Notes: generated by a model from the sequence alone, not told the origin. DNA of 64,000 nucleotides from an uncultured Bacteroidales bacterium (GCA_964644135.1 CAZXWD010000001.1:16882-80881), one strand, 5' to 3'. Positions 12,402 through 45,088 are shown, counted from the first letter of the stretch. Translations and numbers: made by a program.

Positions 12402-12441
12402 AATTAATAAAGTTTAGATTTCAGGTAAAGATAATTAATTC

Positions 12442-15886
<3,445 letters not shown>

Positions 15887-27900: not shown

Positions 27901-30900
27901 AGCTTCGGCCTTAGTTTGCTCGTCAGTGGTCTTAAAGAACTTCTCAGCAGCTTTTTCCTGGAAGGCTGTTCTGTACTGATCAGCAAGTTTTTGTATCGGG
28001 GTAACATCTGATTTCAGCGTACCGGATTCTTTCTTAATGGTAACGATGTTCTCAAGCGTTGTCAGTTTACTTGCAATATCCTGCTGGATCGTTGCTATCA
28101 TACCCCGGGAAAGATTGCGCTGTTTGGACTCACTCATTGCCTCGAGCTGGTCGTACAGTTTAGTCAAGTACTTTGCAACACGTTCTGCCTGTGCAACTGT
28201 TATCCGTGTGTTTTCTGGGTTGTCTCCCTGAAGATCCATTAACGTGTTCCATACCTTTTCAGGAACATCCCTGTATGGATTAAAAGTTATGCCGTAGTCC
28301 TGGGCGTTTTGTTCAATCTCAAAGTCAATATCATTCTGATCAGTAACAACGGTAGGTTCTATAATGCCGCCTTTTTTGGAGCTTCTGAAATCTGGCTTGC
28401 CTTCTTTTTCTACGAGGTTGATTTTCTTGCCGTCAAAGGTCTCACCAGGGGCAAGGCGTTTTAATGTCTTGTTTATCCTGGCCAGTTTGTTTAAGGCAGA
28501 GACAAATCGTTCATCATCCGGTGGAACATTTGCTTTTGCAAGCGTACCAAGTTCTCTTTGTGTGTTGTACTTATCCTGATGAAGTTGTGCATACTGTTCA
28601 ATGGCAAGAGGGGCTTCCTTGTGGTTTTCAATCCCTCTTTCTTTCAATATCCTTCTGTATTCTACCTCGCTTTTTTCCAGCTCGAAGAGATCCTTCTTCA
28701 ACTCATCGATATCCTCTTGCGGCTTGCCCTGTTGTGTTTTCTCCCTGATCTTTTGGAGCAGCTCTTCCTTGCCTTTTATAGCATCGTCCAATAAAATGGC
28801 TATATTCTCACTATTCATTTCTTTAGCGTCGTTTATAACCATCTTATGCTTCTGGTTGTTGATATACCGGATCATAGTCGGAGCGTTCTGCTCAAATGCC
28901 ATCCTTTCTTCCGGACTTAGTTTGCCCATGTTCTCCCGGTAGGTTTCTGCCATGATCTGGCCAAGCGTATTACCACCTCCCATACCGATACCCATCATAA
29001 AGGTCATGGCCGTAAAATGGAACAACTCGCTTTTATCCAGGAACAAATCGTCGAACTGCTTTTTAAAGTCGTCCCAATGTTCAGTATCCCGGTACATCTG
29101 CCAGGTGGTCTGTGCTGTCTCTTCTGAGGTTTCACCAAAGCCCCTTCCGATAAACCTGCCCCCGATATTGGTCAGCCTGTCTACATATTCTTTCATCCGT
29201 CCCTTAAAAGCCATATTGATGAACTTAGGGATCATTACCTTCTGGCCGAGCTTTGTAATAAAACCTTCCCCGAAAGCACCGAACATTCCGGAAAGAAAAT
29301 CTGCTTCATCTTGAATGACCCGGTTTCCGCTGTGCAATAGTCCCGCGGTTTGATATTCCAATCCTGAATAGGCTCCTCTTGCCAGTAATCTCTTTCCCGC
29401 CTCAGCAGCTCTTCTGACTTTGTTAGTTCCTTTGTATGTTCTTATAAGACCGGCTTTTCTTAAGTTTGCCAGCGGCTTGACAAATTTACTTGCCAAACCT
29501 ACCAGCAAGGCACCTTCGGCCATAGGTTCCAAAATAGCCAGTGTCGGCCCCATCATTTCGCCAAAATCTGCTGCAGAAAAATCTTTGTATTCGGTCCTGG
29601 TCTTTAAGGATTTTTTAACCGTGGGCTCTATCAGCTTATCGATCCCTATTTCCTGCATAGTAGTCATCGCTGTGTTGGAAAGTTGCTTTTGGGTAGACAA
29701 AGAAGAATAAGTCATTGGATACAGGCTTTGTGTTGCTTGCCTGTATGCCATATCACCTGTTTTCTTTATATTATCCCATGCACGGCTAAACCATCCGTCT
29801 TTTACAGATCTTTCTTCGTCTTCCAGGTATTCTACCGGTAACCGGTTCATCATTACCAGGGGAGCAATCGCCCGCATTTGATGGTGAAGACCTTCTTCTC
29901 CGTACAGTCTTTCGTAAGGCCCGTTGGCATGAGATCCGTATTTGTCTTTCATAGACTCTACCCAGGCGCCCAGATGAGTTTTGGCATTGTGGGTGAGGTT
30001 TACTTTGTCTTCATATTCTGTTGCCAGAACCTGTAAGACCATGTTCAGAGCATCCCTGGCTTTTGTGCCTTTGGGTACAACATCCATCAGGTTAAAGTCG
30101 GTTTCGTTTATAGCTCGTTCTGCACGAAGCTGCTCGTACTTTTTAGGATCCCCGTCTGCTTTGAAAAGATCCATAGACATGGCCTCGACAAACCTCAGCT
30201 CATCTTTCAAGTACTTCTTTTCTTTTTCATCGTCAGTGGCCTCCAGGGCTATTTGCAATTCTTTATGCCGCTCTTGCACTTTCTGCCTTCTCTGATCGAG
30301 CAGGCCATAGATTTTTGATCTGATATCTGAGATTTCGCCTTGTTTTCTAACAAGCTGTTCCTGATCGACTGTCGCTCCTTCTCCTTCAGGATTCTTGATC
30401 TTGTTGAGTTCAGCAAGTTTTTGACCTAATTGTTCTTTTAGATCAAATTCCATATTATCTTCTTCGCTCATGAATTCCCGGGCCAGCCAGTCGCTTCTTT
30501 GATTGAGCATTTCGCGGGAGGCCTCTACCGGCTTTGAAGTAAATTGCTGACCGGCTTTTTCTTCCATTTTCTTGGTGTAGTCGAAAAAGTTCAGTGGGCC
30601 GGTCTCAAGTTTTTCTATAAGTATTTTGCGTCTCTCTCTTAGTTTTTCATATTCAATAGAACGGTTCCTGTTTGGTTCAGATGATAATCCGGCAGGTCCC
30701 ATTAAATGTGCTTTAGAGTCTGTCTGTTGATCAAACTCGTAGATTTTCTTTTCAAGGTCTGCTATTTCAGTTCTAATGCCAGCACGTTCTTCATCAGCCT
30801 TTATTTCCGCTTCGCTACGCTGGTATGTCTGGTACTTTCCCCACTTTGTGTTGATCCTTTTACGAACCATGTCCATAAATGGCTTCATAGTAGGATCATC

Positions 30901-33755: not shown

Positions 33756-36700
33756 TTAGTAAAGTTTATTGTGGTTAGACACAAGCTGATACATCCTGAT
33801 ATTTTTGGACATATCTTTCAGTACAAATTTAACATACAAATACATTCCTTCCATGCGGCCCTGGTTTCCTTCCGGAACAGAAAAGCGCCACTCATCGACT
33901 ACGAACTGGTAATTTTCCGGCAATTCGCTCACATCGTCAACAGCTATGTTTTTATAACTGCTGCTCACAACATCATAAACACTCTTATATGTTACCTCGT
34001 CAAAGAAGTTGGTTCCGCCCCGCATAAGCATGCCCAGGAATGTCTTCATGTCTCTCAGGTTCGGATTTATTATAACTTCAATATAAGGTTCAATAGCAGC
34101 CCCGTATGCTGTTTCAGATTCAACATCGTGTTTATGCACCTGCTGAGAATTGTAGGCAATACCATAAAGTGTGTTTTCTTGCGGAATGTACAACGAGGGC
34201 CCCCACTGCGGTTTTGATACAAAAGAACGTAGTTTGATGTTGTAGGCAATCGTATTGTAAGATCCGGCCTTGATAAAAGTCATGTAGACCAGGTTTTTCT
34301 TTCTGTTGAATATTCCTACAATTCCACCTTTTCCGGAAGGATCGTTATGTCCTGAGTAATCACCAATATCCTCAAAAAAGGATTCGGCTCCTTTGACAAA
34401 TGATTCGTCACTAAGCTCCAGGGATCTGGTCATGTGCAAGAATTTATTCCTCGTTGCGTCGTACCACATCCAGTTACCATCGACATAAACAAGTGATGTT
34501 CGCTGCTCAAGACCAATATTTTCGTATACGTAGTCGTTCCTGTCGAACTTACCACCTACACCGAGTTGTACAAGTATTTTGTCCGGATCGTTGGTCAAAG
34601 CTCTTTCATCGACAGGAATAAACCCTATTGCTTTATCCTGCCAGAATATAAGCCTGGAACCAAAACCATGTAATGCATTGACAGAACCGTAACGACCCAG
34701 CACATCAACAAAATTATTGGCCATAAACTGCCTGTAAGCATCTACTTTAGCGCCGTCTATCTTTGTGTTGCTGTATCGGATCCTGTTTTTGAATTTTGTT
34801 GATTTGTTTATATCGATCGGGGCTCCGGGATATAATATTTCCGGATCTGAATTCCATGCATTGTTAACCGTGAAATCTTCAAAGTTTTCGATCCTACGAT
34901 CAGAATGGATATTATCATCATCGTTCCATAACTGTATGTGCGGGCTCTTCATTCCAAGGATACTATTACCGGATCGGGCTAAAGGATTGACTGATGTTTG
35001 CAAGGGCAGGGTTATTACATTTCCTTCCATTGTATCTTTAACCAGCTTATAAATCGAAAAAGGAATGATCCTGGCATGAGTGAACATCGTGATGTAAGTG
35101 TCTCCACCAAACAGTTGAATGTTTTTCGCAATATATTTGATGCTGTAATAAGAAGCAGTTTTAATCGCTTCTTTAAAATCCTCATCAACTTTTTGAAAAT
35201 GGCCGACATACATGTACTGAGAGTTGGCAAGAGCTGAAGAAGTTGTCCCTCCGTAAAGAACGGATTTATTTCTTTTGTGCCTTACAATCGGAACCTGTTT
35301 TAATGAGTTCGCATCCGGATCCCACCAGTCATTGTTATCAGAATGAGTCAATACAAGGCATTTTCCTCCTGCAGCACCGTTTGTGGCTAAAGCAGGAGAT
35401 GTATACTTAAATATGTTGTGGAACCGGAACAATTCTGCTGAACCGCTCATAGGATCAGTAGATAGTTCGTTCTCTTCTGTTGCGTTTTCAACCTGAAATA
35501 TTCCTGATATTTTTGACGGATCAATAGTTGTTTCTCTGGCAGTGGTAGGATAAAAAATATGTTTGTATTTCTGTACCGGATTTTCTGCTCCTGCTTCAAT
35601 AACCTCGTCGTTTTGATATATTGCCTTATAGGCTATCTCGAATTCATCTTCAGCTCTTAATTCTTCAGTTGTTCCCAGCAAATAATCAGGGGGCATCCAT
35701 TCGCTTATATCATAAACACCCCATTGGAACCTGTCAAACATTCCTTCATATAAATGTTCTTTAGGCTCGAGTATGTTGTGAACTTTAACCCACTCTCTTA
35801 TTGTTTCATCGTCTTCTTCATAACTTCTGCGAATGATATTAGCTATTGGCCCCTCGGCCAGAATGGTCTTATCTACAGGGCAACGTACAATATAAAATCC
35901 GGAAATGTCATGGATAATATCTGTCAGGTCTACATTAACCAAAATACTTGCAACCTGGGCATTGAAATAATCTTTATTCTCGTCAGCAGCACGAAATGTT
36001 TCGGTATATTTTTTCATGTAACCGGTAATATATGGCCCGACTAAATTACCGTCTTCATTTAAAGTCTCGAACTGCTCAGATTCGGCACTGCCACGTTCAG
36101 GGATAGTAATGTCATCGATCCACCGGACATAATTAAACGTTCCTCTCTTGCTTACAGGAAGGACTCCTATACGATATGTTTCACCACTGCGGTATCCGGC
36201 CATTCTTTTGCTATGAATGCCTTTGTATCCAAGCTGGTCTCTTATGTCCAGGTATTCGAAAATGTTTTTTTCCTGCTGGAAATCGTAATACTTGCAGATC
36301 CGGAACACCGGTATTACTGTACCGGTATCAGACCAGGTAGGCTTGTCTATCTTCCCCAAAAATACATTGCCTGAGGTATAGGTGTCTCCGTTATAACCGA
36401 CGGTTCCTTCCAGTACTTTGTAATACTGTCCGGGAAGGATATCACCGTTGCGTACCGTTCCGTCTTCTTTCAGGGAAGGCAGACCGGAATAAGTATCTGT
36501 ATCAAGATCATTCAGGTTCCTGTCATAAATACGTCCTCGAAAGGCAGGGACCTCATAAGTAATTGCTTTAAAGTCGTTCGGGTTGTTCAATCGTTGCCCG
36601 GCATCTAACTGATCCTCTTCTGTTACCCCGCCGATAGCCAATGTTTTTTTGATGTCGAAAAGGTCGTTGATTCGTTCTATAGCTACTGTTGCAGTTGTGT

Positions 36701-37739
36701 AGGCATTAATACTTACCTGTTCACCTGTGTATTGAGTGATCAAAACATTTAATGATGAGGAAGATATTTCTTCTTCCACTACTATCCTGCCTGTTTCAAA
36801 GGCCCCGTTCTCGATCATTTTAAAGGCCAGTATTTCAATCTTTTCGTACCGGGTGTCAATACCTGTAATTTGCAACTTAAGTCCTTTACCGGTATTGCGT
36901 GCAGGTGTAGCGCCATTAAAACGAGCATGCCATAACCTGCCCGGGGTGTCCAGATCAACTGATCCTTCATAAGTAAACATTGAGTAAGGGCCAAATAAAC
37001 CGCTCCAGGAAGTTTTGTATCCTTCTGTGTAATACCGGTAAGCAATAAAATACGGTGCAGCAGGAAGGTTTCCATCGACAAGTTCAGTAAAGTCGATCCG
37101 GGCTTCTGTTTTTAATGGATTAAAATCGAGCAGATCCGGATCCACATACTTTACCAGGACAGTGTCAGAAACATGATATCCACCTGGACTAAACCAGATA
37201 TAGGTGAAGATATCACCAGGATAGTAGGTGATTTCTCCTTGTGTATAATAGCCCCGTGTGACTAAATATTTTTCTCCTTCTACCAGCCCTAGATGATGTC
37301 CAGAACGGGGTTTTATATCGATGAGATTGATTGTCTTAGGCGTTGTGATCAAATCGTTCCAATACATACGAACGATTTCTCGGGATTCGTAATCAATGAA
37401 ACCCCTAACCTGGCTATTCAGTACAAAGAATTTCTCTTTTGTCGTTATGTAAACCGGTGTCAGAGAATTGTTTTCGAGCATACCAATGTAATGCTTCGTT
37501 CCATTGGAATACATGATATAAGTCTCACCGTCTCCTTCTACATATCCTACAGCCGTATAACCGTCTTCTATACTGAACTGAACCTCTGTTCCATCAAGCC
37601 TTGTCCATGAAAAGTTCCCTTCACCATGATCCAACAGCCTGCCATGGCCACAATCACGGTATGAGTTTTCCGGCTGGAAAGCCGGTTCATTGTCAAGGTG
37701 CATGCCCTTTTCAAAAGTCTGTATGTGTTCTTTAGCCAT
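33756..37739 (-). CDS. large tail structural protein (1327 aa)
   Basis: Called from size and position in the tail block just upstream of the cargo and giant genes. No enzymatic motif seen. Confidence 0.5.
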   Translation of the reverse strand: MAKEHIQTFEKGMHLDNEPAFQPENSYRDCGHGRLLDHGEGNFSWTRLDGTEVQFSIEDGYTAVGYVEGDGETYIMYSNGTKHYIGMLENNSLTPVYITTKEKFFVLNSQVRGFIDYESREIVRMYWNDLITTPKTINLIDIKPRSGHHLGLVEGEKYLVTRGYYTQGEITYYPGDIFTYIWFSPGGYHVSDTVLVKYVDPDLLDFNPLKTEARIDFTELVDGNLPAAPYFIAYRYYTEGYKTSWSGLFGPYSMFTYEGSVDLDTPGRLWHARFNGATPARNTGKGLKLQITGIDTRYEKIEILAFKMIENGAFETGRIVVEEEISSSSLNVLITQYTGEQVSINAYTTATVAIERINDLFDIKKTLAIGGVTEEDQLDAGQRLNNPNDFKAITYEVPAFRGRIYDRNLNDLDTDTYSGLPSLKEDGTVRNGDILPGQYYKVLEGTVGYNGDTYTSGNVFLGKIDKPTWSDTGTVIPVFRICKYYDFQQEKNIFEYLDIRDQLGYKGIHSKRMAGYRSGETYRIGVLPVSKRGTFNYVRWIDDITIPERGSAESEQFETLNEDGNLVGPYITGYMKKYTETFRAADENKDYFNAQVASILVNVDLTDIIHDISGFYIVRCPVDKTILAEGPIANIIRRSYEEDDETIREWVKVHNILEPKEHLYEGMFDRFQWGVYDISEWMPPDYLLGTTEELRAEDEFEIAYKAIYQNDEVIEAGAENPVQKYKHIFYPTTARETTIDPSKISGIFQVENATEENELSTDPMSGSAELFRFHNIFKYTSPALATNGAAGGKCLVLTHSDNNDWWDPDANSLKQVPIVRHKRNKSVLYGGTTSSALANSQYMYVGHFQKVDEDFKEAIKTASYYSIKYIAKNIQLFGGDTYITMFTHARIIPFSIYKLVKDTMEGNVITLPLQTSVNPLARSGNSILGMKSPHIQLWNDDDNIHSDRRIENFEDFTVNNAWNSDPEILYPGAPIDINKSTKFKNRIRYSNTKIDGAKVDAYRQFMANNFVDVLGRYGSVNALHGFGSRLIFWQDKAIGFIPVDERALTNDPDKILVQLGVGGKFDRNDYVYENIGLEQRTSLVYVDGNWMWYDATRNKFLHMTRSLELSDESFVKGAESFFEDIGDYSGHNDPSGKGGIVGIFNRKKNLVYMTFIKAGSYNTIAYNIKLRSFVSKPQWGPSLYIPQENTLYGIAYNSQQVHKHDVESETAYGAAIEPYIEVIINPNLRDMKTFLGMLMRGGTNFFDEVTYKSVYDVVSSSYKNIAVDDVSELPENYQFVVDEWRFSVPEGNQGRMEGMYLYVKFVLKDMSKNIRMYQLVSNHNKLY

Positions 37740-38457
37740 ATAAATTCAAAGATGCGTTTCCTGTAAATTCAAACCCGATAATATCGGATAATTCTCTCAT
37801 GTGCTGCTCAGTAGTTTCATCGTCAGACTTTATTTGCCTGACTGCCCTGCGGTATTCACTTTCAAGTTCCTTTATAAACCTCATGTTTGCCCCGGTAAGA
37901 CGGTCTTTACGAAACCTGTGCCACAACTCCTTTTTTGACATTTCCCAGATCAATCCCTTTGCAAGCGGATCGATATGGCTTTCTAAAACCATGATAAATC
38001 CATCCTTATCAACAGGATATTCCAAGAGATCTATTGTAATCTCCGTCTGATTAGGTTTCCTCTCAAAGATAATCGTGTTGTTTTGAATGTACCACGGATA
38101 ACAGGCAACGATATTGGTATAGTCTGAAGTGTCCTCCCACCGGTAGGTCAGGTTGTTACCGTCCGTTGAAACATTATACGTTGGAACCCCGCTAAAGACA
38201 TCCGGAACATGATCCATGTGATCACCCATTAGAATGGCATTGACATGTACTGCCGACTCAGGCAGCTTTACCTGGACATCATCTGTTACTTCCAACAGCT
38301 TAAACCTTCTTTGGTAATTGTAGAATCCTCCTATCTTTAGATCTTTCTGCTTTGCCCAACGTGCCAGGATAGGATACATTTTTTTTGTGTTCTCATCTGT
38401 ATCTTCAACAGCCTGTAAAAAAGCTTCTTTTATGCTTACCAGTTTTTTTATTGCCAT
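37732..38457 (-). CDS. hypothetical structural protein
   Basis: ATG start, 241 aa, 8-nt overlap with the downstream tail gene. Confidence 0.5.
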   Translation of the reverse strand: MAIKKLVSIKEAFLQAVEDTDENTKKMYPILARWAKQKDLKIGGFYNYQRRFKLLEVTDDVQVKLPESAVHVNAILMGDHMDHVPDVFSGVPTYNVSTDGNNLTYRWEDTSDYTNIVACYPWYIQNNTIIFERKPNQTEITIDLLEYPVDKDGFIMVLESHIDPLAKGLIWEMSKKELWHRFRKDRLTGANMRFIKELESEYRRAVRQIKSDDETTEQHMRELSDIIGFEFTGNASLNLYG

Positions 38458-38466
38458 AACTGCCTG

Positions 38467-39309
38467 TTATTGTATTCGTGAACTGACCACCTTAAATTGA
38501 TCCTGAGCGTCGTCGACCACATCTGCTATGCTTCTTCTTTCCAGCTCATATTCGTTCGTCAGGATAGCTAAAACGACGTTCTGGGCCATTTCTCTGCTTA
38601 TAGGGAAGTCGTCGTATTTGGTTATACTTTTTATCTGCTGAGAGAGCTTCACTTTTGCATTTGCGGAATAGGTATAAGAATATCCGTTTTGTACTGTAAA
38701 AGATGTCCCGGTGTTATATACTGTTCCGCTTGTAGATCCTATGAGGGTTTCAAGTACATGGCCGTCCATGACGGTATATTCTGTATCCACGACAAGAGCA
38801 GAAGACATAACATCCAAAGTGTTCCACACGTATCCGTTCATAGGATCTTCCAACACTCCACTAACGTCAAGTTCTTCCTGGTAAGGATACACATAAAGCT
38901 CGTTCCTGGAGGTAACAGCATAAAAAATAAATTGCTGTAGTCTTTCATCTTCCAGGGAAATCATTTCCATCAGGTGATCCCAGTCAATGGAATGCAGCAT
39001 TTTGTTCCGGGAAGCACTGCGAATTTTAATAAGGCCGTCTATTACTGCCGGTACTTCGATCTTGCCCAGCCTCACTGAAGAACTGTACACATTTGGGTTG
39101 TCTGAAGAAGATACCGGTGTAGGCTTGTACCTGCCCATTCGTTGATAAAACTCGGCAGGGACCTCGTTAAGTTGTACCAATTCCTGCCCAATAAGCACAG
39201 CACGGTAGTTGAGGATCTTGTGCAATAAGTATGCATCAGTGACCCGTGTATCGTCTGTAAGAGCAAGAAGAACTGTTTTTATATCGTAGATAATGTCCTC
39301 AACCTTCAT
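38467..39309 (-). CDS. hypothetical structural protein
   Basis: ATG start, 280 aa, overlaps the endolysin stop codon. Confidence 0.5.
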   Translation of the reverse strand: MKVEDIIYDIKTVLLALTDDTRVTDAYLLHKILNYRAVLIGQELVQLNEVPAEFYQRMGRYKPTPVSSSDNPNVYSSSVRLGKIEVPAVIDGLIKIRSASRNKMLHSIDWDHLMEMISLEDERLQQFIFYAVTSRNELYVYPYQEELDVSGVLEDPMNGYVWNTLDVMSSALVVDTEYTVMDGHVLETLIGSTSGTVYNTGTSFTVQNGYSYTYSANAKVKLSQQIKSITKYDDFPISREMAQNVVLAILTNEYELERRSIADVVDDAQDQFKVVSSRIQ

Positions 39310-39748
39310 TTGGATTAACAGATTTTAGTATAACATTCGAACTCGAAGTTAACTTAAATAAAATCCGTTGTCCATTTCCGAGGCTGTAATCACAGTGCAC
39401 GTAGTTCAATGATACATTATAAACCATATTCGTGTAAGATGAAAATTCCCATAACAGTTGTAGGAATTCAGGCATTTTCAGGTGTGATGTTGTCCAGTCG
39501 ACGGCGCCTTTACCAAAGAAGCAATGTTCGCTTTTGCCGTTTCTTCCCAGCCGTTTTTCTAATTCCGGAGGCCGGTATCCTGAATTATTGTTAGTGGTGA
39601 TATATCCATCGAAGTTCCTGGCTATTTCTACCATAGGCAGGATGTGGTGAATGAGGAGCTTGTCGATTATTGTAGGTGGTATTTCATCGACAATCGTGAA
39701 TTCTTTTAATCGGAACGGAAAGTAAGGATCCTTTTTCTTCATTCTCAT
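39299..39748 (-). CDS. peptidase M15-family endolysin (Zn D,D- or L-Ala-D-Glu peptidase)
   Basis: NNSGYRPPELEKRLGRNGKSEHCFFGKGAVDW fits the SGYR...S.H..G.A.D pattern, with C-terminal YVHCDY supplying the His-Asp-His metal ligands. Confidence 0.7.
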   Translation of the reverse strand: MRMKKKDPYFPFRLKEFTIVDEIPPTIIDKLLIHHILPMVEIARNFDGYITTNNNSGYRPPELEKRLGRNGKSEHCFFGKGAVDWTTSHLKMPEFLQLLWEFSSYTNMVYNVSLNYVHCDYSLGNGQRILFKLTSSSNVILKSVNPNEG

Positions 39749-40497
39749 TTCAAAACGGCTATTATAGCAAACAAACCTGCAGCTCCGACTGCGGCCCAGA
39801 ATTTTCTCTTTCCTTTCTTTATCTTTTTGTCTTTTTCATCAATCTTCGATGCAAGGTCTTTTGCAAGAGTTTCATAAGCAATTAGAGAGATACTGTCGTT
39901 TACTATGATATTGTGCTGGGTCTGAATTATAGAACGTAAATTACTATTAATTTCTGATATGTTAATGAATCGTTCAGATAAAGTTTCGTTCCGGTCTGTT
40001 AATAAGGATATCCGTTTTTGAAATTCTGCGTGCTCTTCAAACTTTATGTTCGCCGTGCGTATGCTTTCCATAGGAACGATCAATGAAGTGTCCCTGGGAA
40101 AAGACGCACCCCCCGGTTCGATTAAGAACTCGGGGGGTGCTTTATAGCCTGTCTGATCAAGAAAGAGGATACTTGCCTGCTGGTCATTCATAGCAAGTAT
40201 TTCTTTTGTTCTTTTTTTTAGCTGATTTTCGGATGATGCCAGTTCTGTTGATAACTTTTCGATCTTTTGGTTTAAAGCCGAATCGATTTCATGCAGGGAA
40301 TCATTCCGAACTTCATAATCAGCTATTACCGCAGACAGCGAATCCTTGCTTTTTTGATGTTTTTCTTTGAGCCTCTCGATGTCTGCATGGTAGTTCTCTT
40401 CCGGTATCCTGTCATCACAGCTTCGCACAATAATAACAGTGGCTACAACTGCTATGACCAGTGTCAGGATTGTTTGGATGAGACCGTACTTTTTCAT
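39745..40497 (-). CDS. unimolecular-spanin-like protein (N-terminal lipoprotein-type signal, coiled coil, C-terminal TM)
   Basis: MKKYGLIQTILTLVIAVVATVIIVRSCDD (Cys27 followed by acidic residues), a long heptad-like middle, and C-terminal FWAAVGAAGLFAIIAVL. ATGA overlap with the endolysin gene. Confidence 0.4.
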   Translation of the reverse strand: MKKYGLIQTILTLVIAVVATVIIVRSCDDRIPEENYHADIERLKEKHQKSKDSLSAVIADYEVRNDSLHEIDSALNQKIEKLSTELASSENQLKKRTKEILAMNDQQASILFLDQTGYKAPPEFLIEPGGASFPRDTSLIVPMESIRTANIKFEEHAEFQKRISLLTDRNETLSERFINISEINSNLRSIIQTQHNIIVNDSISLIAYETLAKDLASKIDEKDKKIKKGKRKFWAAVGAAGLFAIIAVLK

Positions 40498-40769
40498 TCC
40501 TTTTTAATTTTGGAACCCGGCATTGCTTCTGCAAATTTCTGAAAAACTTTCATAGATGCAGAATAAGCCAGCAATATAAGTATCACATTTAATGATACAA
40601 GGTAATCCGGATCCGTCCATTTATTTTTCAACTCAAGAAAAATAATGATTATCGCAACGATTAATGCTGCAATAGTTTTGATCCTTGTCGTTGAGGTTTT
40701 GATGATCATATCTCCCTGGGGAGAATAACCTTCAATTTCTTCTAAAAAGCCAACCTTAATTTTTTTCAT
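40494..40769 (-). CDS. holin-like small membrane protein (2 TM, charged C-terminus)
   Basis: TM segments IKTIAALIVAIIIIFLEL and LVSLNVILILLAYSASM. Tail ends PGSKIKKE. Overlaps both neighbours. Confidence 0.45.
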   Translation of the reverse strand: MKKIKVGFLEEIEGYSPQGDMIIKTSTTRIKTIAALIVAIIIIFLELKNKWTDPDYLVSLNVILILLAYSASMKVFQKFAEAMPGSKIKKE

Positions 40770-41259
40770 GATCTTTTTTTCTTATTGTTTTTACTCCTGC
40801 CAATATTGCGGCGAGAATTACCAGACACATAATAAAATAGCCTACCGTTTCCCATATGTCTATTGAAAATTCTTTAATCAGGAAAAAGGCAGGCACAAGC
40901 GGAATGAACTTGAACAGCAATATCCAAAGCCCGAATGTTCTGATCATCCAGCCGTTGATTCCTTTTTCATCTGTATAAAGAATGTCTTTACCCATGATCA
41001 AAGCATGGATTATATCCCAATAGGTCCAGGTAATAAATAAAAAGGAAAGTTGCAGCAAGATGTGTTGAAACCAATCCATGCTTTCCCAAAAATGGATCAG
41101 CAAGACTCCATGCAACATAATACGGATCCAAAAACCCGCTGCGTGGAACAATTTTGACCAGTACCGGTCATTGCTTCCCTGGTGCCTCCAGCTGATCATT
41201 GCCTGCTGCATGATTGCAAGCATGACAACAATAATGAATGTTAAAATAATTTGTCCCAT
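40756..41259 (-). CDS. polytopic membrane protein (~5 TM)
   Basis: 167 aa with five hydrophobic stretches, rich in Trp, His and Phe. Confidence 0.5.
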   Translation of the reverse strand: MGQIILTFIIVVMLAIMQQAMISWRHQGSNDRYWSKLFHAAGFWIRIMLHGVLLIHFWESMDWFQHILLQLSFLFITWTYWDIIHALIMGKDILYTDEKGINGWMIRTFGLWILLFKFIPLVPAFFLIKEFSIDIWETVGYFIMCLVILAAILAGVKTIRKKDHEKN

Positions 41260-41266
41260 AGCTTTT

Positions 41267-41575
41267 TTATATTCCTCCTTTTGACATGATATAAGCAGTA
41301 ACTACACCGGCAACAATGGCAAGAACAGCATTAATAATCCGATCCGACCATGTGTTAGTGTGTTTCCTGGTATTGAGCAAGGAATTAACCTGTAGGTTAA
41401 GTTTGTTGTATTTTTCCTCAAGCTCTTTGAACCGTTTAGCACTGTTCTCTTCATTTTTCTGGCATGAATCAACAGTAGAAGTAACCTGTCCTATCAAGTG
41501 ACGGGTGAACTCTTTAAGTAAAAATTGTCCATCGCTTTCATCAAAAAATCTTTGGTCCATCAGGAAATGCAGCAT
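41267..41575 (-). CDS. tail-anchored membrane protein with coiled coil
   Basis: ATG start. Single C-terminal TM segment IINAVLAIVAGVVTAYIM. Confidence 0.45.
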   Translation of the reverse strand: MLHFLMDQRFFDESDGQFLLKEFTRHLIGQVTSTVDSCQKNEENSAKRFKELEEKYNKLNLQVNSLLNTRKHTNTWSDRIINAVLAIVAGVVTAYIMSKGGI

Positions 41576-42014
41576 TTGACGGTATTGCCACTGCCAACAC
41601 TATAGCGTCTTCAATGCATTTGACAGTATGTGGGATACCTGGTTTAATAGTTAATGAGTTACCTTTTTTGAGGATGGTGGTTATGTTTTCGTCGTAAGTG
41701 ATTTCAATCTTTCCGGAGATAACAATAAATATTTCCGTTTCGGTATCTACATGTTTATGTGTTGATGCATTGGCTTCCATTTCAAGCAAACAAACATCAC
41801 ATTCAGGATTACGCATTAGTCCTTTACCAGTTGTCTTTGCATCGCCTGTCTGGTAAGTTTTAGTATTGCCACACGCATGAATTACCGGAACCTTTTCCGG
41901 AAGATCTTCAATCATGCTTGTCAGGTTTTTTAGTTCATCGGTCATAGGAGTGGTTATTAATAAAAACTGGTTATTTTTTATAGGTGTTTTACCACCATTC
42001 GATTGTTCCTGCAT
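41541..42014 (-). CDS. cupin-domain protein
   Basis: Cupin motif 1 THKHVDTETEIFIVISG and motif 2 GNSLTIKPGIPH. The track start at 42026 is TTG. The first ATG is at 42014, and the ATG at 41945 is an alternative. Confidence 0.55.
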   Translation of the reverse strand: MQEQSNGGKTPIKNNQFLLITTPMTDELKNLTSMIEDLPEKVPVIHACGNTKTYQTGDAKTTGKGLMRNPECDVCLLEMEANASTHKHVDTETEIFIVISGKIEITYDENITTILKKGNSLTIKPGIPHTVKCIEDAIVLAVAIPSNAAFPDGPKIF

Positions 42015-42564
42015 AGTACCAGGCAAATCTTCCGTTGCGGAAGGTCATTTTATAGCCTTTCCGTTTCCAGAAGTTTTTACATCGCCAGCCCTTATAGAGC
42101 CAATGATCTTCCGGTAGCCATTCGATCCGGGATTCTCCTTGCATACCTACATTGTCTTTTGTGTAGTAGTCGGTAATTTTTGTACGTTGACCCACAAAAA
42201 CGGTACAGTTATCGACAATCCATTCATTACCATGTTCTTGCCATATATCCTTAGCGAATTCTTTGGCCACATCTTGCATTTCATGGACCCACTTAGGATT
42301 GTTGGGATTGACATAATTGATGTAATAATAGGCCACAAAGTTCAATCCGCCTATTTCAATCTCATAGACGGACATAGGCGGATCTGTAACGATTTTCCAC
42401 TGGCGTTCCTTTTCGACGGTAGTGTGGTCAAAAGTCCACCCTTCCCATTTGTTTTCCGAATCTCTTGCGGCATATTCAGGCACGTCGTTATACCCATCAA
42501 GGTACTGTTGTGATACCATAAGAAGCGGTATCATTACAAAAAATAACATTAGAAACTTTTTCAT
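41989..42564 (-). CDS. secreted protein of unknown function
   Basis: Signal peptide MKKFLMLFFVMIPLLMVSQQ. The mature part is rich in Trp and Tyr. Confidence 0.55.
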   Translation of the reverse strand: MKKFLMLFFVMIPLLMVSQQYLDGYNDVPEYAARDSENKWEGWTFDHTTVEKERQWKIVTDPPMSVYEIEIGGLNFVAYYYINYVNPNNPKWVHEMQDVAKEFAKDIWQEHGNEWIVDNCTVFVGQRTKITDYYTKDNVGMQGESRIEWLPEDHWLYKGWRCKNFWKRKGYKMTFRNGRFAWYYAGTIEWW

Positions 42565-42591
42565 AGCTGTGCGTTTTTAATTAATAGATAA

Positions 42592-42978
42592 TTATTCAGG
42601 TTCAGGTTCAGTGATGACCTTCTGTTTTAGCTTTTCTATTTCCCACAAGGCCCACTGTTTTATATAGTTCCTGTTTGTGAATGTCTGGTCTTTCAACCAC
42701 TGGATTGTAACCTGTGCAGCTCCTACAGAATCAGCGTTGCTCCTGGCCACACGATATTGTTCCGTGCTTTTTTTATAGAGCTCTCCATTATAGACCAGGT
42801 ATTCGGTATAATTTATTTTTAAGATTATACCATTAGGATGTGGAGTCTGAACAGCTTCCCAGACTTGCATAGTCGTGTCTCCTTGGCTTATATTAATTAC
42901 CGTGTCTTCTTGGACTGTCCACTGAGAAAACGCAGCAGAGGCCATTAAAATCAATAAAATTGTCAGTAGTTTTTTCAT
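42592..42978 (-). CDS. secreted protein of unknown function
   Basis: Signal peptide MKKLLTILLILMASAAFSQ. Confidence 0.55.
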   Translation of the reverse strand: MKKLLTILLILMASAAFSQWTVQEDTVINISQGDTTMQVWEAVQTPHPNGIILKINYTEYLVYNGELYKKSTEQYRVARSNADSVGAAQVTIQWLKDQTFTNRNYIKQWALWEIEKLKQKVITEPEPE

Positions 42979-42979
42979 A

Positions 42980-45088
42980 TTAATATAGTTTGTGAATAGA
43001 TACAGTTGTTACAGGTATTGAAACGCTAACACTCGAAACATTAGCCTGATAAGCATAAAGAGTAATCTCATCGCCTGATGATAACTCAACAGTTAAATCA
43101 ATGAAAGCCAATTCCTTTCTGCCTGATTCTACTTCGATCATTGTTATACAAGCACCACCGTACCCCGAACCGTTTACTCTTGGTTGCAGTCTTAAAACAT
43201 CTATATCAGAACCAATATTTAGCGTTACTGTGAATGTTATTCTAAAAATTCCAGCAACTGAAACGGTTGCCGTACTATCATCGGTCATTGTTATATTCTT
43301 AGCTGTTATGTAATTTGCATAAGTTCCGTCTGTCAAAGGTATTTTAGTCCAAGTACTTTGCAGTAATGTGAATGATGATGCGTGATTATCTGACCAAGAC
43401 ATATAAGCAGCCTCACTATACTCCACCTGACCATCTGAGTTTTGCACCAAGTTCCTGTCAGGCGTTACGTCTTCGATTATGCCGTCGAAATCGACTCTGT
43501 TGGAAACAGTCAATGTATTATCTTTCAATAAGGTTCCTTCTATGTAAACGCCATTATCAACTGTTTCTTCATAAATGCTATCAATACTTAATGTCGATGC
43601 TGTTGCTTCAGCTCCGTAACCAAGATCCGAACTGAACTCATCTAACAAGTCTTGATAACCCCAATAAGACATTTTTTCACTTACCCCGTTGAGAACCAAA
43701 AAGCAAGTGTCTGCTGCTGAAGATACAGCTGGCGGTAAAGGATCAATGTAAATGTTGGCTTCTGTTCCGCTGTGTTTTGTAATTTTTAATCCGTCATTGG
43801 CCGTAAGTTCAAGCTGACCGGATTCGTCTGAGACCAATGATCCGGATGTGCTGTTTGTTAAATACAATCTCCCATAAGGCGCATAAACATAACCGTCTGA
43901 ATCTCCATGTAACCATGTATCGTTTAATAGCCCGTCGTCTTCATTCCAGGCAAGATACATTACAGGCCCGCCTGTTCCGGCATCGTCAGCTCCTGCCCTG
44001 TAACCGAGAAACAATCCGTAATCGCCTTCCCAGTTATATCCGGCACGTTGGCCCCAGGCAACATTACCTGCTCCTGTTTCATTATTGTAAAGAGCATACC
44101 ATCCGCCTGCTATATTGTTATAGGCCGTTGTGTTTCTTCCTCCGGCATGAAATCCCGCGAAAATATTGTTGCCTCCTGAGGTGTTACTGCCACCGGCTGA
44201 ATAGCCAAGAAAAATATTTTTATCACCGGTTGTGTTGTCTTCTCCTGCAGTTTGTCCAATCATTACATTGTACTGAGCAGATGTTGAGCTATATCCTGCC
44301 GAGTTTCCGATCATTATATTTCCGTCATCGGATAGATGAGCGCCGCTGTAACCACCTGCCCTGAAACCGGCTATGAAATTATTGTCACCTGAACAACCGT
44401 ATCCTGGAAAATTTCCCAGGTATATGTTATTTTGTCCTGATGTTTGATATCCTGCGGACCATCCCAGTGCTGTTTCTCCCACTCCTGTCGATCCACCAAG
44501 CGCAAGATATCCTACGCCTGCCATTTGTCCGTTGCCAGAATATGTAGAAGGTGAATATCCTGCTGATTGGCCTAAAAAAACACTCGTTCCGTATCCTACT
44601 TTATATTCTTGCCAGAGCAGTTTTACAGGGTTAGTTGTTTGATCTATTTCCCAAATACCACCGCCATAAGTTCCCAGGCTGTTATCATAGCTTTGGATAC
44701 ACATCGGGCCGTCAACTATCAAAGGGAAGTCATCCTGCTGTCCGGAAGACATGCCCAGGTCTCCACCTGCCTGGATAAAACCGGTTTCAAGCGTATCGGA
44801 TATATTAACATCGCCTTGCACATCAAGGTCTTTACCGGGCGTTGAAGTGTTGATCCCCACATCGCCTGAACTGTAATATATATCGGATCCGTTTTGTGAC
44901 CACAGGCTAGCACCTCCTGTTATGATCGCCCAATATACGGTGTCATTAGAAATCACTACTACCGTATCCGAATCGCGTTCGTTTAGATTGAGCAGCATGA
45001 CTGGGGCATCAAATGCTGTGATCATTGTCTGCCCCCGCATGCCGATAAATCCAAAAACCAGTATTATGAAGAAAAGTATTTTTTTCAT
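42980..45088 (-). CDS. fibre/adhesin-like protein with an N-terminal signal peptide
   Basis: MKKILFFIILVFGFIGMRGQ. Fibre motif GDVGINTSTPGKDLDVQGDVNIS. Many N-x-x-x-G-x-x-AG beta-helix-type repeats. C-terminal VAGIFRITFTV...SSGDEITLYAY resembles the C-terminus of fibre 1. Confidence 0.6.
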   Translation of the reverse strand: MKKILFFIILVFGFIGMRGQTMITAFDAPVMLLNLNERDSDTVVVISNDTVYWAIITGGASLWSQNGSDIYYSSGDVGINTSTPGKDLDVQGDVNISDTLETGFIQAGGDLGMSSGQQDDFPLIVDGPMCIQSYDNSLGTYGGGIWEIDQTTNPVKLLWQEYKVGYGTSVFLGQSAGYSPSTYSGNGQMAGVGYLALGGSTGVGETALGWSAGYQTSGQNNIYLGNFPGYGCSGDNNFIAGFRAGGYSGAHLSDDGNIMIGNSAGYSSTSAQYNVMIGQTAGEDNTTGDKNIFLGYSAGGSNTSGGNNIFAGFHAGGRNTTAYNNIAGGWYALYNNETGAGNVAWGQRAGYNWEGDYGLFLGYRAGADDAGTGGPVMYLAWNEDDGLLNDTWLHGDSDGYVYAPYGRLYLTNSTSGSLVSDESGQLELTANDGLKITKHSGTEANIYIDPLPPAVSSAADTCFLVLNGVSEKMSYWGYQDLLDEFSSDLGYGAEATASTLSIDSIYEETVDNGVYIEGTLLKDNTLTVSNRVDFDGIIEDVTPDRNLVQNSDGQVEYSEAAYMSWSDNHASSFTLLQSTWTKIPLTDGTYANYITAKNITMTDDSTATVSVAGIFRITFTVTLNIGSDIDVLRLQPRVNGSGYGGACITMIEVESGRKELAFIDLTVELSSGDEITLYAYQANVSSVSVSIPVTTVSIHKLY

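What the first reader, a model, noticed from the sequence alone, without database searches (positions are those of the whole stretch)
39299..41575. Lysis cassette inside the structural operon, including a candidate unimolecular spanin
Five overlapping minus-strand genes are arranged in this order. A tail-anchored coiled-coil protein, a ~5-TM protein, a 2-TM holin-like protein, a 250-aa spanin-like protein, then an M15 endolysin. The 250-aa protein has an N-terminal lipoprotein-type signal (VIIVRSC followed by DD), a long coiled coil, and a C-terminal TM. An outer-membrane lipid anchor plus an inner-membrane C-terminal TM is the topology of the T1 gp11-type u-spanin. Acidic residues right after the lipidated Cys are the surface and outer-membrane sorting cue in Bacteroidota lipoproteins. 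Spanin equivalents for Bacteroidota phages are poorly defined. The cassette also sits unusually, between fibre genes and tail genes.
Basis: partly seen in the sequence, partly recalled or inferred. Interest (0 to 1): 0.55.

Follow-up and report, generated by a model that had tools for sequence, protein, structure and literature searches.

The report
crAss-like phage lysis cassette, odd spanin candidate
A divergent crAss-like phage carries a real but ordinarily placed lysis gene cluster, and its 250-residue "spanin-like" gene is probably not a T1-type lipoprotein spanin but the founder of a tiny new family of helical proteins with a membrane segment at each end that may break the outer membrane.

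Summary
The five minus-strand ORFs exist exactly as described, in a divergent crAss-like phage. They lie upstream of ring protein 2, a ring-protein-1 homologue and the muzzle protein.

g149 is an M15/LAS peptidase: the catalytic residues are invariant, relatives hit Pfam M15_3, and the fold matches viral M15A models. g91 looks like a 2-TM holin.

The position inside the structural operon is normal for Crassvirales. Cellulophaga phage phi14:2, crAss001 and cr1_1 are arranged the same way.

The T1 gp11-type u-spanin reading is not supported:
- The "lipobox" VRSC has Arg at -2 and fails standard patterns.
- The hydrophobic stretch is TM length (19 aa). The phage's three cleavable signal peptides have about 14 aa.
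- Cys27 is absent from both distant homologues.
- The body is helical, not beta.
- An acidic motif after Cys signals surface export in Bacteroidota, not periplasm-facing sorting.

Four family members were found in two searches of 1.8 and 5.8 billion protein-cluster representatives (about 15 billion sequences). They share an N-terminal TM, helix, conserved hinge, second helix, polybasic stretch and a Gly/Ala-rich C-terminal hydrophobic tail. In the one distant relative whose DNA could be read, the gene also sits beside an M15 endolysin and directly upstream of ring protein 2.

Best reading: a new Rz-like spanin analogue with two membrane-anchored ends. This is inferred, not shown.

The parts
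41267..41575 (-). g102: 102-aa protein with an N-terminal soluble, coiled-coil-like region and a single C-terminal TM (residues 80-98). It is a possible XhlA-like holin-associated protein.
   Evidence: ORF. Hydropathy. Weak match to PHROG 937 'hemolysin' at E 2e-4. No homologue in the relatives' cassettes.
40756..41259 (-). g167: 167-aa polytopic membrane protein (4 strong and 1 weaker TM) with a basic C-terminal tail. It is a candidate holin, antiholin or other membrane lysis factor.
   Evidence: No Pfam, PHROG or NCBIfam hit. A non-homologous 188-aa multi-TM gene occupies the analogous cassette position in L008.
40494..40769 (-). g91: 91-aa 2-TM protein with a charged C-terminal tail (class II holin-like).
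   Evidence: 91% identical over the part covered by L001. Small 2-TM genes sit at the same cassette position in L002 and L008.
39745..40497 (-). g250: 250-aa helical protein with a membrane segment at each end. This is the spanin candidate and the founder of a four-member family.
40426..40482 (-). g250 residues 6-24: N-terminal hydrophobic segment of TM length, read here as an uncleaved signal-anchor. Cys27 (40417-40419) follows in VRSC|DD.
   Evidence: Mean Kyte-Doolittle hydropathy 2.78 and approximate insertion free energy -2.1 kcal/mol. Lipobox patterns fail. Cys is not conserved in the family.
40162..40401 (-). g250 residues 33-112: long helix 1 with heptad periodicity.
   Evidence: AlphaFold2. 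Heptad score beats 299 of 300 shuffles.
40072..40161 (-). g250 residues 113-142: non-helical hinge. With the residues on either side (about 112-153) it is the most conserved stretch of the family: F-[LF]-[DE]-x-T-G ... P-E ... D-T-[SC]-[LM]-I-x-P ... A-N-[IV]-[KR]-F.
   Evidence: Alignments A1 and A6. AlphaFold2 pLDDT below 50 here.
39802..40071 (-). g250 residues 143-232: long helix 2, ending in a conserved polybasic stretch (KKIKKGKRK; 7-8 Lys/Arg in 12 residues in all four members).
39751..39801 (-). g250 residues 233-249: 17-residue Gly/Ala-rich hydrophobic C-terminal segment (FWAAVGAAGLFAIIAVL), followed by a single Lys. G-A-A is invariant in the family.
   Evidence: approximate insertion free energy -1.1 kcal/mol.
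39299..39748 (-). g149: cytoplasmic M15/LAS-type zinc peptidase endolysin with no signal or SAR sequence.
   Evidence: Invariant SGYR, SxH75, D84 and H118xD across 11 homologues. 4 of 11 hit Pfam Peptidase_M15_3, best 5e-7. The AlphaFold2 model (pLDDT 83) matches 12 BFVD 'Peptidase M15/M15A' models at E<=1e-3. PHROG 894 endolysin at 2e-4.
38467..39309 (-). Context: crAss tail ring protein 2, immediately downstream. It overlaps g149 by 11 nt.
   Evidence: Pfam CrAss_Ring_2 at 2.1e-7. 40% identical to the ring protein 2 that follows the g250 homologue in L002.

Best explanation
The segment 39299-41575 is the lysis module of a divergent crAss-like (Crassvirales) phage. It is transcribed as part of the late structural operon, just upstream of ring protein 2, a ring-protein-1 homologue and the muzzle protein.

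Proposed sequence of events:
1. g91, possibly with g167 and g102, permeabilises the inner membrane.
2. This releases the cytoplasmic M15/LAS peptidase g149 onto the peptidoglycan.
3. g250 performs the last step, disruption of the outer membrane.

g250 is not a T1 gp11-type lipoprotein u-spanin. It is the founder of a very small, previously undescribed family. Its N-terminal segment is an uncleaved, TM-length signal-anchor in the inner membrane, with the N-terminus in the cytoplasm. The periplasmic body is two long helices (about 12 and 13-16 nm) joined by a conserved hinge, like Rz CC1-linker-CC2. The C-terminus is a conserved polybasic stretch plus a Gly/Ala-rich 17-residue hydrophobic tail, where Rz would instead have its Rz1-binding end.

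Once the endolysin removes the peptidoglycan mesh, the protein is proposed to oligomerise and fold about the hinge. The basic, hydrophobic C-terminal module would then engage a second bilayer and pull or destabilise the outer membrane. In effect it would be an i-spanin that carries its own second membrane-active end.

Shown: the gene order, the architecture, family conservation, linkage to the endolysin in the one distant relative whose DNA could be read, and the absence of any o-spanin-like lipoprotein gene in the window.

Inferred: the topology, which membrane the C-terminal segment occupies, and the function itself.
For: - crAss identity and context: Pfam Crass_capsid, CrAss_Ring_2 and crAss_MUZ.
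- Endolysin identity.
- The family has four members with one shared architecture.
- P0002 lies between a Pfam M15_3 peptidase and ring protein 2, with a 2-TM holin-like gene just upstream. P0004 lies in a similar small-gene run of 141, 101 and 248 aa, followed by a 178-aa gene cut off at the end of its contig.
- R2 is 40% and the 241-aa ring protein 30% identical between the two phages, yet the holin-like genes are not homologous. g250 is therefore retained while its neighbours are replaced.
- AlphaFold2 gives a TM helix, helix, hinge, helix, with heptad periodicity in helix 1.
- Both end segments have negative approximate insertion free energies. The N-flank is basic in all members (+2 to +4). 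A polybasic stretch precedes the C-terminal segment in all four.
- There is no embedded, overlapping or separate ORF with a canonical lipobox in the cassette or among the real genes of the window.
- The slot next to the endolysin and upstream of R2 holds other N-terminally TM-anchored, non-lipoprotein proteins: phi14:2 g076 and g078, and the L008 196-aa protein. In phi14:2 these genes were not annotated as virion proteins, while the flanking genes carry MS/MS-based virion annotations.
- The window has no homologue of the common crAss 'LysB-like' gene, so g250 may fill that role.
Against: - There is no experimental evidence and no homology to any characterised spanin. PHROG 739 'Rz-like spanin' scores only E 0.021, which reflects TM plus coiled-coil composition.
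- Normal Sec biogenesis would most simply leave both hydrophobic ends in the inner membrane. A helical hairpin of about 12-13 nm may not reach the outer membrane.
- The polybasic stretch would sit in the periplasm, contrary to the positive-inside rule. The charge pattern therefore leaves the topology ambiguous.
- In L002 a separate 144-aa N-TM plus coiled-coil protein hits Rz-like PHROGs at 2.5e-4. The g250 family need not be the i-spanin equivalent there.
- The family has only four members, and heptad periodicity is not significant in the two distant ones.
- The AlphaFold2 model is of moderate confidence (pLDDT 69, pTM 0.38).
Confidence: 0.45

Rival explanations
1. One reading: g250 is a T1 gp11-type unimolecular spanin. 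Its N-terminal segment is an SPase II signal peptide. [quoted passage not shown] The C-terminal TMD stays in the inner membrane.
For: - A Cys directly follows the hydrophobic stretch, preceded by Ser at -1, and is conserved in the 93% relative.
- There is a C-terminal TM-competent segment.
- The gene sits next to the endolysin.
- Genuine lipobox plus C-terminal-TMD genes follow homologues of this same endolysin family in two other, non-crAss phage contigs: L004 (LLGC) and L005 (FVSC).
- A 2025 survey reports that Bacteroidetes phages use only unimolecular spanins.
- Unusual lipoboxes such as AWAC can be functional.
Against: - Arg at -2 violates the lipobox consensus and both regular-expression tests. 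No charged -2 lipobox was found in the stored parts of the spanin tables, which are truncated.
- The h-region is 19 residues and Cys is at position 27. This compares with Cys16 in the L004 and L005 proteins and about 14-residue h-regions in this phage's own signal peptides.
- Both distant homologues lack any Cys near the N-terminal TM.
- The body is helical, whereas T1-family u-spanins are beta-rich.
- Acidic residues after Cys resemble a surface-export signal, which is incompatible with bridging the periplasm.
Confidence: 0.12
2. g250 is an inner-membrane lysis regulator or holin partner (antiholin or timing factor, or a scaffold for holin rafts). Both TM segments are in the inner membrane, and it has no direct action on the outer membrane.
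For: - Default membrane-protein biogenesis places both hydrophobic ends in the inner membrane (inference).
- The gene lies between the holin-like gene and the endolysin.
- The small-residue G-A-A motif conserved in the C-terminal TM suggests helix-helix packing within a membrane.
- Annotated crAss genomes label N-TM coiled-coil neighbours of holins as 'lysis regulatory protein'.
- L002 has a separate Rz-like candidate.
Against: - The holin-like genes are not conserved between this phage and L002, while g250 is. This argues against a specific holin partner.
- A periplasmic or bridging body of about 200 residues with a conserved hinge is large for known antiholins.
- No other outer-membrane disruption candidate exists in the cassette.
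Confidence: 0.25
3. g250 is a membrane protein unrelated to lysis, for example a superinfection-exclusion, cell-division or envelope-remodelling factor. It merely shares the variable region upstream of ring protein 2.
For: - The region between the capsid/fibre genes and R2 is variable among relatives. Here it also holds a cupin and three secreted proteins.
- There are weak architecture-driven hits to ZapG-like and MreC.
Against: - g250 is directly adjacent to an M15 peptidase, with translational overlap, both here and in the one distant relative whose DNA could be read. The endolysin and g250 genes are in the opposite order there.
- The database hits are far below family cut-offs.
Confidence: 0.13

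Closest known systems
Two-component i-spanins (lambda Rz, P2 LysB)
   Same: N-terminal TMD with the N-terminus in the cytoplasm. The periplasmic domain consists of two helical or coiled-coil segments joined by a linker. The gene is encoded in the lysis cassette (Kongari 2018).
   Different: - No cognate o-spanin lipoprotein gene is present.
- g250 ends in a polybasic stretch plus a hydrophobic C-terminal segment that Rz and LysB lack.
- It has about 200 periplasmic residues, against about 130.
- There is no significant sequence similarity (PHROG 739 E 0.021).
Unimolecular spanin T1 gp11 and other u-spanin families
   Same: A single polypeptide with a membrane-targeting element at each end. It has a C-terminal TMD and lies adjacent to the endolysin.
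   Different: - The N-terminal element is not a canonical lipoprotein signal, and its Cys is not conserved.
- The body is helical rather than beta-rich.
- It is about twice as long as T1 gp11 (about 131 aa, from my own knowledge).
- There is no sequence similarity.
Crassvirales 'lysis regulatory protein' family (crAss001 Gp27; RefSeq note 'similar to LysB/FtsL'). This is probably the 'spanin' family of Borges et al. 2021, though that link is my inference.
   Same: A crAss late-operon gene next to a holin and a peptidoglycan hydrolase, with an N-terminal TM plus coiled coil.
   Different: - It is not homologous to g250 (hhalign probability 3.5%; HMM scores of 7 bits or less).
- Gp27-type proteins end in a beta-rich domain without a C-terminal TM.
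- The window has no Gp27-like gene.
Class I viral fusion proteins and SNAREs (analogy only)
   Same: A membrane anchor, two long helical segments around a hinge, and a Gly/Ala-rich hydrophobic peptide. The polybasic juxtamembrane stretch next to a C-terminal TMD resembles SNAREs. This comparison rests on my own knowledge, and spanins have been compared with viral fusion proteins.
   Different: There is no homology, and the order of elements is reversed relative to class I fusion proteins. Foldseek hits are generic coiled coils, none at E<=1e-3.
Peptidase M15 / LAS-family phage endolysins (Pfam PF08291 Peptidase_M15_3, 'M15A C-terminal')
   Same: g149 keeps the SxH...D...HxD zinc-ligand pattern and the fold.
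   Different: g149 itself is below the Pfam cut-off (E 0.013). It has a two-residue longer H-to-D spacing. Foldseek found no significant PDB match.

Membership tests
Unimolecular spanin (T1 gp11 type) | N-terminal OM-lipoprotein signal with a lipobox ([LVI][ASTVI][GAS]C) and a lipidated Cys | tested here: not met
   VRSC has Arg at -2 and fails the PROSITE-type and G+LPP patterns (consensus quoted). The h-region is 19 aa with Cys at position 27. Cys is absent in homologues P0002 and P0004. SignalP and LipoP were not available.
Unimolecular spanin (T1 gp11 type) | C-terminal transmembrane domain | tested here: met
   Residues 233-249, approximate insertion free energy -1.1 kcal/mol, conserved in all four members. 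However, only 0-1 residue follows it and the basic residues lie on its N-terminal side.
Unimolecular spanin (T1 gp11 type) | Periplasmic domain dominated by beta strands (T1 family) | tested here: not met
   AlphaFold2 predicts helices 33-112 and 143-249 and no strands.
Unimolecular spanin (T1 gp11 type) | Encoded in the lysis cassette beside the holin and endolysin | tested here: met
Unimolecular spanin (T1 gp11 type) | Complements an Rz/Rz1 (outer-membrane disruption) defect | not testable with these tools
   Needs an experiment.
i-spanin (Rz/LysB type) | N-terminal TMD, N-in, with the remainder periplasmic | tested here: inconclusive
   The hydrophobic stretch 6-24 is TM length and the N-flank is basic in all members. 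But the polybasic stretch before the C-terminal segment gives a conflicting charge signal, and no dedicated topology predictor was available.
i-spanin (Rz/LysB type) | Two helical, coiled-coil periplasmic segments joined by a linker | tested here: met
   AlphaFold2. Heptad periodicity is significant in helix 1 of g250 only.
i-spanin (Rz/LysB type) | Cognate o-spanin lipoprotein gene embedded in, overlapping or adjacent to it | tested here: not met
   No lipobox ORF lies in any frame of the cassette. None of the real genes of the window has one. The only canonical-lipobox small ORF (37568-37690, inside the muzzle gene) evolves as a non-coding frame.
i-spanin (Rz/LysB type) | Sequence membership in a known i-spanin family | tested here: not met
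   PHROG 739 E 0.021 only. No Pfam or NCBIfam family matches.
Crassvirales Gp27 / 'LysB-like lysis regulatory protein' | Detectable homology to crAss001 Gp27 and its relatives | tested here: not met
   hhalign probability 1.8-3.5%. HMM bit scores of 7 or less.
Peptidase M15 / LAS endolysin (g149) | Zinc-ligand motif H-x(n)-D ... H, with a preceding SxH and a final HxD | tested here: met
   S73, H75, D84, H118 and D120 are invariant in 11 homologues.
Peptidase M15 / LAS endolysin (g149) | Profile or fold membership | tested here: met
   4 of 11 family members hit PF08291 (best 5.1e-7). g149 itself scores E 0.013. 12 BFVD M15/M15A models match at E<=1e-3. The PDB profile gives only weak LAS (hedgehog) hits at E 0.16, and Foldseek against the PDB gives none.
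Class II holin (g91) | Small protein with two TMDs and a charged C-terminal tail, next to the endolysin | tested here: met
   This is architecture only. There is no homology to any holin family, and function cannot be tested here.

The most novel reading that the evidence does not exclude
g250 and its three relatives would be a lipid-anchor-free unimolecular spanin. A single chain is anchored in the inner membrane by an N-terminal TMD. Its polybasic, Gly/Ala-rich C-terminal peptide inserts into the outer membrane. After peptidoglycan removal the chain folds back about the conserved hinge, like a class I viral fusion protein built in reverse order. This would be a third architectural solution to outer-membrane disruption, alongside Rz/Rz1 and T1 gp11, and the first defined for crAss-like phages.
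Probability: 0.15. Interest if true: 0.7.

Novelty: new variant of a known kind. Interest (0 to 1): 0.4.

Why it matters
How crAss-like phages breach the Bacteroidota outer membrane is not established. These phages are among the most abundant viruses of the human gut. Their annotated 'spanin' or 'lysis regulatory' genes are N-terminally anchored coiled-coil proteins with no known lipoprotein partner.

A family that carries a second, conserved membrane-active module on the same chain would give a concrete hypothesis. It can be tested by Rz/Rz1 complementation, a C27S mutant, C-terminal truncation and membrane fractionation. It would also broaden the definition that annotation pipelines use for spanins, which currently require a lipobox.

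The practical lesson for scans is that a Cys after a hydrophobic N-terminus is not enough to call a lipoprotein. The cassette and its position are otherwise ordinary for Crassvirales.

Tried and rejected
**Searches that found nothing**
- blastn of 37000-43000 against GenBank phages, and tblastn of g250, ring protein 2 and P0002: no match.
- Word-indexed search for g250: only the 93% relative. A profile search with A1 added nothing new.
- IMG/VR and JGI metagenome scans with the muzzle protein, the g250 family, its central motif and ring protein 2: one extra crAss locus (L008) and no new family member.
- Stored spanin tables of Kongari et al.: no lipobox with Arg or Lys at -2. These files are truncated, so this is weak evidence.

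**Hits discarded**
- P0003 from the exhaustive search is a repeat artefact.
- Foldseek of the g250 model against BFVD gave only generic coiled coils such as SMC and Rad50, none significant.
- Pfam and NCBIfam hits of g250 (MAD, ZapG-like, TrlF, MreC) are far below cut-offs and reflect composition.

**Tests with a negative or weak result**
- Foldseek of the g149 model against the PDB gave no significant hit. Sequence search of g149 against the PDB gave none. The profile gave only weak hedgehog/LAS hits.
- I suspected that g250 is a diverged crAss001 Gp27/LysB-like protein because of shared 'LQY-AS' and 'DT..I.P' strings. Profile-profile and HMM tests rejected this.
- A 40-aa ORF with a perfect lipobox (VAMAGC) lies inside the muzzle gene. 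I considered it as an o-spanin and rejected it. All 9 nucleotide differences from L001 are synonymous in the muzzle frame and change 8 residues in the alternative frame.
- No homology was detected between the holin-like, multi-TM or coiled-coil genes of this cassette and those of L002, L008, cr1_1 or phi14:2.

Full report
**1. The observation**

- g102, 41267-41575
- g167, 40756-41259
- g91, 40494-40769
- g250, 39745-40497
- g149, 39299-39748

Junctions are tight. Overlaps are 14 nt (g167/g91), 4 nt (g91/g250) and 4 nt (g250/g149), plus 11 nt into the next gene. There is one 7-nt gap, between g102 and g167.

Hydropathy analysis gives:
- a single C-terminal TM in g102
- four strong hydrophobic segments in g167, with a weaker fifth read by eye from the sequence
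- two in g91
- in g250, an N-terminal segment (6-24, mean Kyte-Doolittle hydropathy 2.78) followed by VRSC27DD, and a C-terminal segment (233-249)

These are real genes. An independent Logan contig (L001) carries g91 (partial), g250, g149 and the next three genes at 90-95% amino-acid identity in the same order.

**2. Genomic setting**

The window is a divergent crAss-like phage:
- Pfam Crass_capsid at 50763-52277
- CrAss_Ring_2 at 38467-39309
- crAss_MUZ at 33756-37739
- a 5232-aa ORF at 15937-31635

The 241-aa gene at 37732-38457 is 30% identical to the Pfam CrAss_Ring_1 protein of L002, so I call it a ring-protein-1 homologue.

There is no nucleotide match in GenBank phages, and only about 25% protein identity to known Crassvirales muzzle proteins.

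The position of the cassette is not unusual.
- A Crassvirales review states that late structural and lysis genes form one transcription unit.
- Borges et al. place a crAss 'spanin' two genes upstream of the tail-tube gene.
- In cultured Cellulophaga phage phi14:2 the order is g078 (N-TM plus coiled coil), g077 endolysin, g076 (N-TM protein), g075, R2-like g074, IHF, R1, muzzle. The flanking genes carry MS/MS-based virion annotations, while g079 to g075 do not.
- In crAss001, Gp27 ('lysis regulatory protein'), Gp28 (holin), Gp29 and Gp30 (L,D-carboxypeptidase) lie between the fibre-like Gp26 and the major capsid protein.

**3. The endolysin and holin-like genes**

g149 alone scores below the Pfam cut-off for Peptidase_M15_3 (E 0.013) and hits PHROG 894 'endolysin' at 2e-4. 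The wider evidence is stronger.
- It has ten homologues at 36-95% identity. S56-G-Y-R59, S73-x-H75, D84 and H118-C-D120 are invariant.
- Four of the eleven sequences hit PF08291, best 5.1e-7.
- The family profile aligns weakly (E 0.16) to the LAS-fold hedgehog N-domain, with the metal ligands in register.
- An AlphaFold2 model (pLDDT 83) matches twelve BFVD 'Peptidase M15/M15A' models at E<=1e-3. Foldseek found no significant PDB match.

g149 has no signal or SAR segment, so it needs a holin. g91 (2 TM, charged tail) is the best holin candidate. g167 (polytopic) and g102 (tail-anchored, weak XhlA-like PHROG 937 hit at 2e-4) are plausible accessory membrane proteins. None has a detectable homologue in the relatives' cassettes.

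**4. The 250-aa protein: is it a lipoprotein?**

Five lines of evidence argue against it.

(a) The lipobox. VRSC has Arg at -2. It fails a PROSITE-PS51257-type pattern and the G+LPP pattern. It also departs from the consensus [LVI][ASTVI][GAS]C quoted by Kongari et al., whose listed deviations (AWAC, LNGC, FVGC) contain no charged residue. No lipobox with a charged -2 residue occurs in their stored tables, which are truncated.

(b) Length of the hydrophobic stretch. It is 19 residues, with Cys at position 27.
- Only three other genes in the window have signal-like N-termini, out of 50 non-nested ORFs of at least 50 aa. Their h-regions are about 14 residues, followed by Gln at +1.
- The Bacteroidetes 'Q-rule' for SPase I substrates is described. 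My reading is that these three signal peptides follow it, which also fits a Bacteroidota host.
- Genuine lipobox plus C-terminal-TMD proteins follow homologues of g149 in two non-crAss phage contigs. These are L004 6468-6896 (LLGC) and L005 1387-1911 (FVSC). Both have Cys at position 16.

(c) Conservation. The exhaustive phmmer search of 1.84 billion cluster representatives found two true distant homologues, P0002 (E 8e-8) and P0004 (E 1.6e-5). They align end to end with g250, but a Trp aligns with Cys27 and no Cys lies near the N-terminal TM.

(d) The acidic residues. In Bacteroidota they form the lipoprotein export signal that sends OM lipoproteins to the cell surface. Periplasm-facing OM lipoproteins lack the motif (Lauber 2016). 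Surface export does not fit a protein that must also hold an inner-membrane anchor.

(e) Secondary structure. T1-family u-spanins are beta-rich. g250 is predicted as helix 33-112, a low-confidence hinge 113-142 and helix 143-249.

**5. What the family conserves**

Only four members were found: g250, P0001, P0002 and P0004. The exhaustive phmmer search read all 1.84 billion 50%-identity cluster representatives of about 15 billion proteins. The word-indexed sequence and profile searches of 5.8 billion 90%-identity clusters added nothing. Scans of IMG/VR, JGI metagenomes and GenBank phages added none either.

The four members share:
- a basic N-terminus and a TM-length hydrophobic segment
- a helix of about 80 residues
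- a hinge that is the most conserved stretch of the family: F-[LF]-[DE]-x-T-G ... P-E ... D-T-[SC]-[LM]-I-x-P ... A-N-[IV]-[KR]-F
- a second long helix
- an invariant polybasic stretch (KK-x-KK-x-KR; 7-8 Lys/Arg in 12 residues)
- a 17-residue Gly/Ala-rich hydrophobic tail with invariant G-A-A, followed by 0-1 residue

In L002 the gene order is a 144-aa N-TM coiled-coil protein, a 108-aa 2-TM protein, a Pfam M15_3 peptidase, P0002, then R2. The P0004 contig shows a similar run of small genes, followed by a gene cut off at the contig end.

R2 is 40% and the 241-aa ring protein 30% identical between the two phages. The holin-like genes are unrelated and the endolysin/g250 order is swapped. The g250 family is therefore retained next to an M15 endolysin while its neighbours turn over. 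That is the strongest argument for a lysis role.

**6. Mechanism**

The architecture is closest to an Rz-type i-spanin (N-TMD, CC1, linker, CC2), with an extra membrane-active C-terminal module and no o-spanin partner.
- No lipobox ORF lies in any frame of the cassette.
- None is found among the real genes of the window.
- The one small lipobox ORF, inside the muzzle gene, evolves as a non-coding frame.

I therefore propose a spanin analogue with two membrane-anchored ends. It would act after the holin and endolysin by hinge-mediated collapse or oligomerisation.

The two helices together measure about 25 nm (my estimate at 0.15 nm per residue). That is enough to cross a periplasm if extended. 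A hairpin would measure about 12-13 nm.

The topology is not settled. The N-flank charges say N-in, with a periplasmic body. The polybasic stretch would then be periplasmic, against the positive-inside rule. Ordinary Sec biogenesis would leave both ends in the inner membrane (inference). Rival readings therefore keep substantial weight:
- an inner-membrane regulator or holin partner, 0.25
- a T1-type lipoprotein u-spanin, 0.12
- a protein unrelated to lysis, 0.13

**7. Relation to known systems**

- The common crAss 'lysis regulatory protein' family includes crAss001 Gp27 and the cr1_1 199-aa protein, and RefSeq notes it as 'similar to LysB/FtsL'. It is widespread (61 phage records). It has an N-TM and a coiled coil but a beta-rich C-terminus.
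- It is not homologous to g250. The window has no copy of it, so g250 may be its functional replacement.
- Other crAss relatives place different N-TM proteins in the slot next to the endolysin: phi14:2 g076 and the L008 196-aa protein.
- A 2025 survey reports that Bacteroidetes phages use only unimolecular spanins. The L004 and L005 examples show what those look like, and g250 does not look like them.

**8. Verdict**

The cassette is real and its position is ordinary for Crassvirales. The M15 endolysin is a new member of a known family. The 'candidate u-spanin' is not a T1 gp11-type lipoprotein spanin. It is an uncharacterised, very rare family with a conserved architecture anchored at both ends. 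It is best read as a new variant of the spanin theme, without functional proof. Interest is moderate (0.4).

Noticed in passing
window 42980-45088, 42592-42978, 41989-42564 (all minus strand): Three consecutive late-operon genes encode proteins with Sec signal peptides of about 14 hydrophobic residues, followed by Gln at +1 (MRG|Q, AFS|Q, MVS|Q). They are a 702-aa Gly-rich fibre-like protein, a 128-aa protein and a 191-aa protein. The pattern matches the Bacteroidetes 'Q-rule' for SPase I substrates. Secreted proteins, including a fibre-like one, are unexpected inside a virion-gene block. They also point to a Bacteroidota host.
   Followed up: partly
window 41541-42026 (-): [quoted passage not shown] It has a TTG start that overlaps the preceding gene by 38 nt. 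Its function in a phage late operon is unclear.
   Followed up: no
L004 6468-6896 and L005 1387-1911: Canonical u-spanin-topology genes (lipobox LLGC or FVSC with Cys16, plus a C-terminal TMD) lie downstream of homologues of the g149 endolysin in two non-crAss phage contigs. The L004 gene is immediately downstream. The L005 gene is separated from the endolysin by two small ORFs. They are good reference examples of what a phage u-spanin paired with this endolysin family looks like.
   Followed up: partly
L002 8838-9272: In the crAss relative that carries P0002, a 144-aa N-TM plus coiled-coil protein upstream of the holin-like gene hits 'Rz-like spanin' PHROGs (739 at 2.5e-4; 7686 at 3.5e-3). 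That phage may therefore have both an i-spanin-like gene and a g250-family gene.
   Followed up: no
window 37568-37690 (-), inside the start of the muzzle gene: A 40-aa alternative-frame ORF has a perfect lipoprotein signal (VAMAGC). It is open in L001 too. However, all 9 nucleotide differences are synonymous in the muzzle frame and change 8 residues in the alternative frame, so it is probably a chance ORF.
   Followed up: yes
L014, L015, L016 (cr53_1, cr114_1, cr125_1), 'lysis regulatory protein-like' genes: The LysB-like genes of these Suoliviridae contain several in-frame stop codons under genetic code 11. This fits the reported preferential stop-codon recoding of crAss lysis genes. No in-frame stops occur in the cassette studied here.
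   Followed up: no
window 9268-15252 (-): Downstream of the giant 5232-aa ORF lie two collagen-repeat proteins (12442-14010 and 14014-15252). Next come a GT2 glycosyltransferase with TPR repeats (10461-12401) and a protein with weak, mostly sub-threshold sulfotransferase and methyltransferase hits (9268-10464). Together they suggest a glycan- or fibre-modification block.
   Followed up: no
window 15937-31635 (-): A single 5232-aa ORF occupies the position where crAss001 has its giant virion RNA-polymerase-like and cargo genes (Gp47 to Gp50). It appears here as one uninterrupted reading frame.
   Followed up: no
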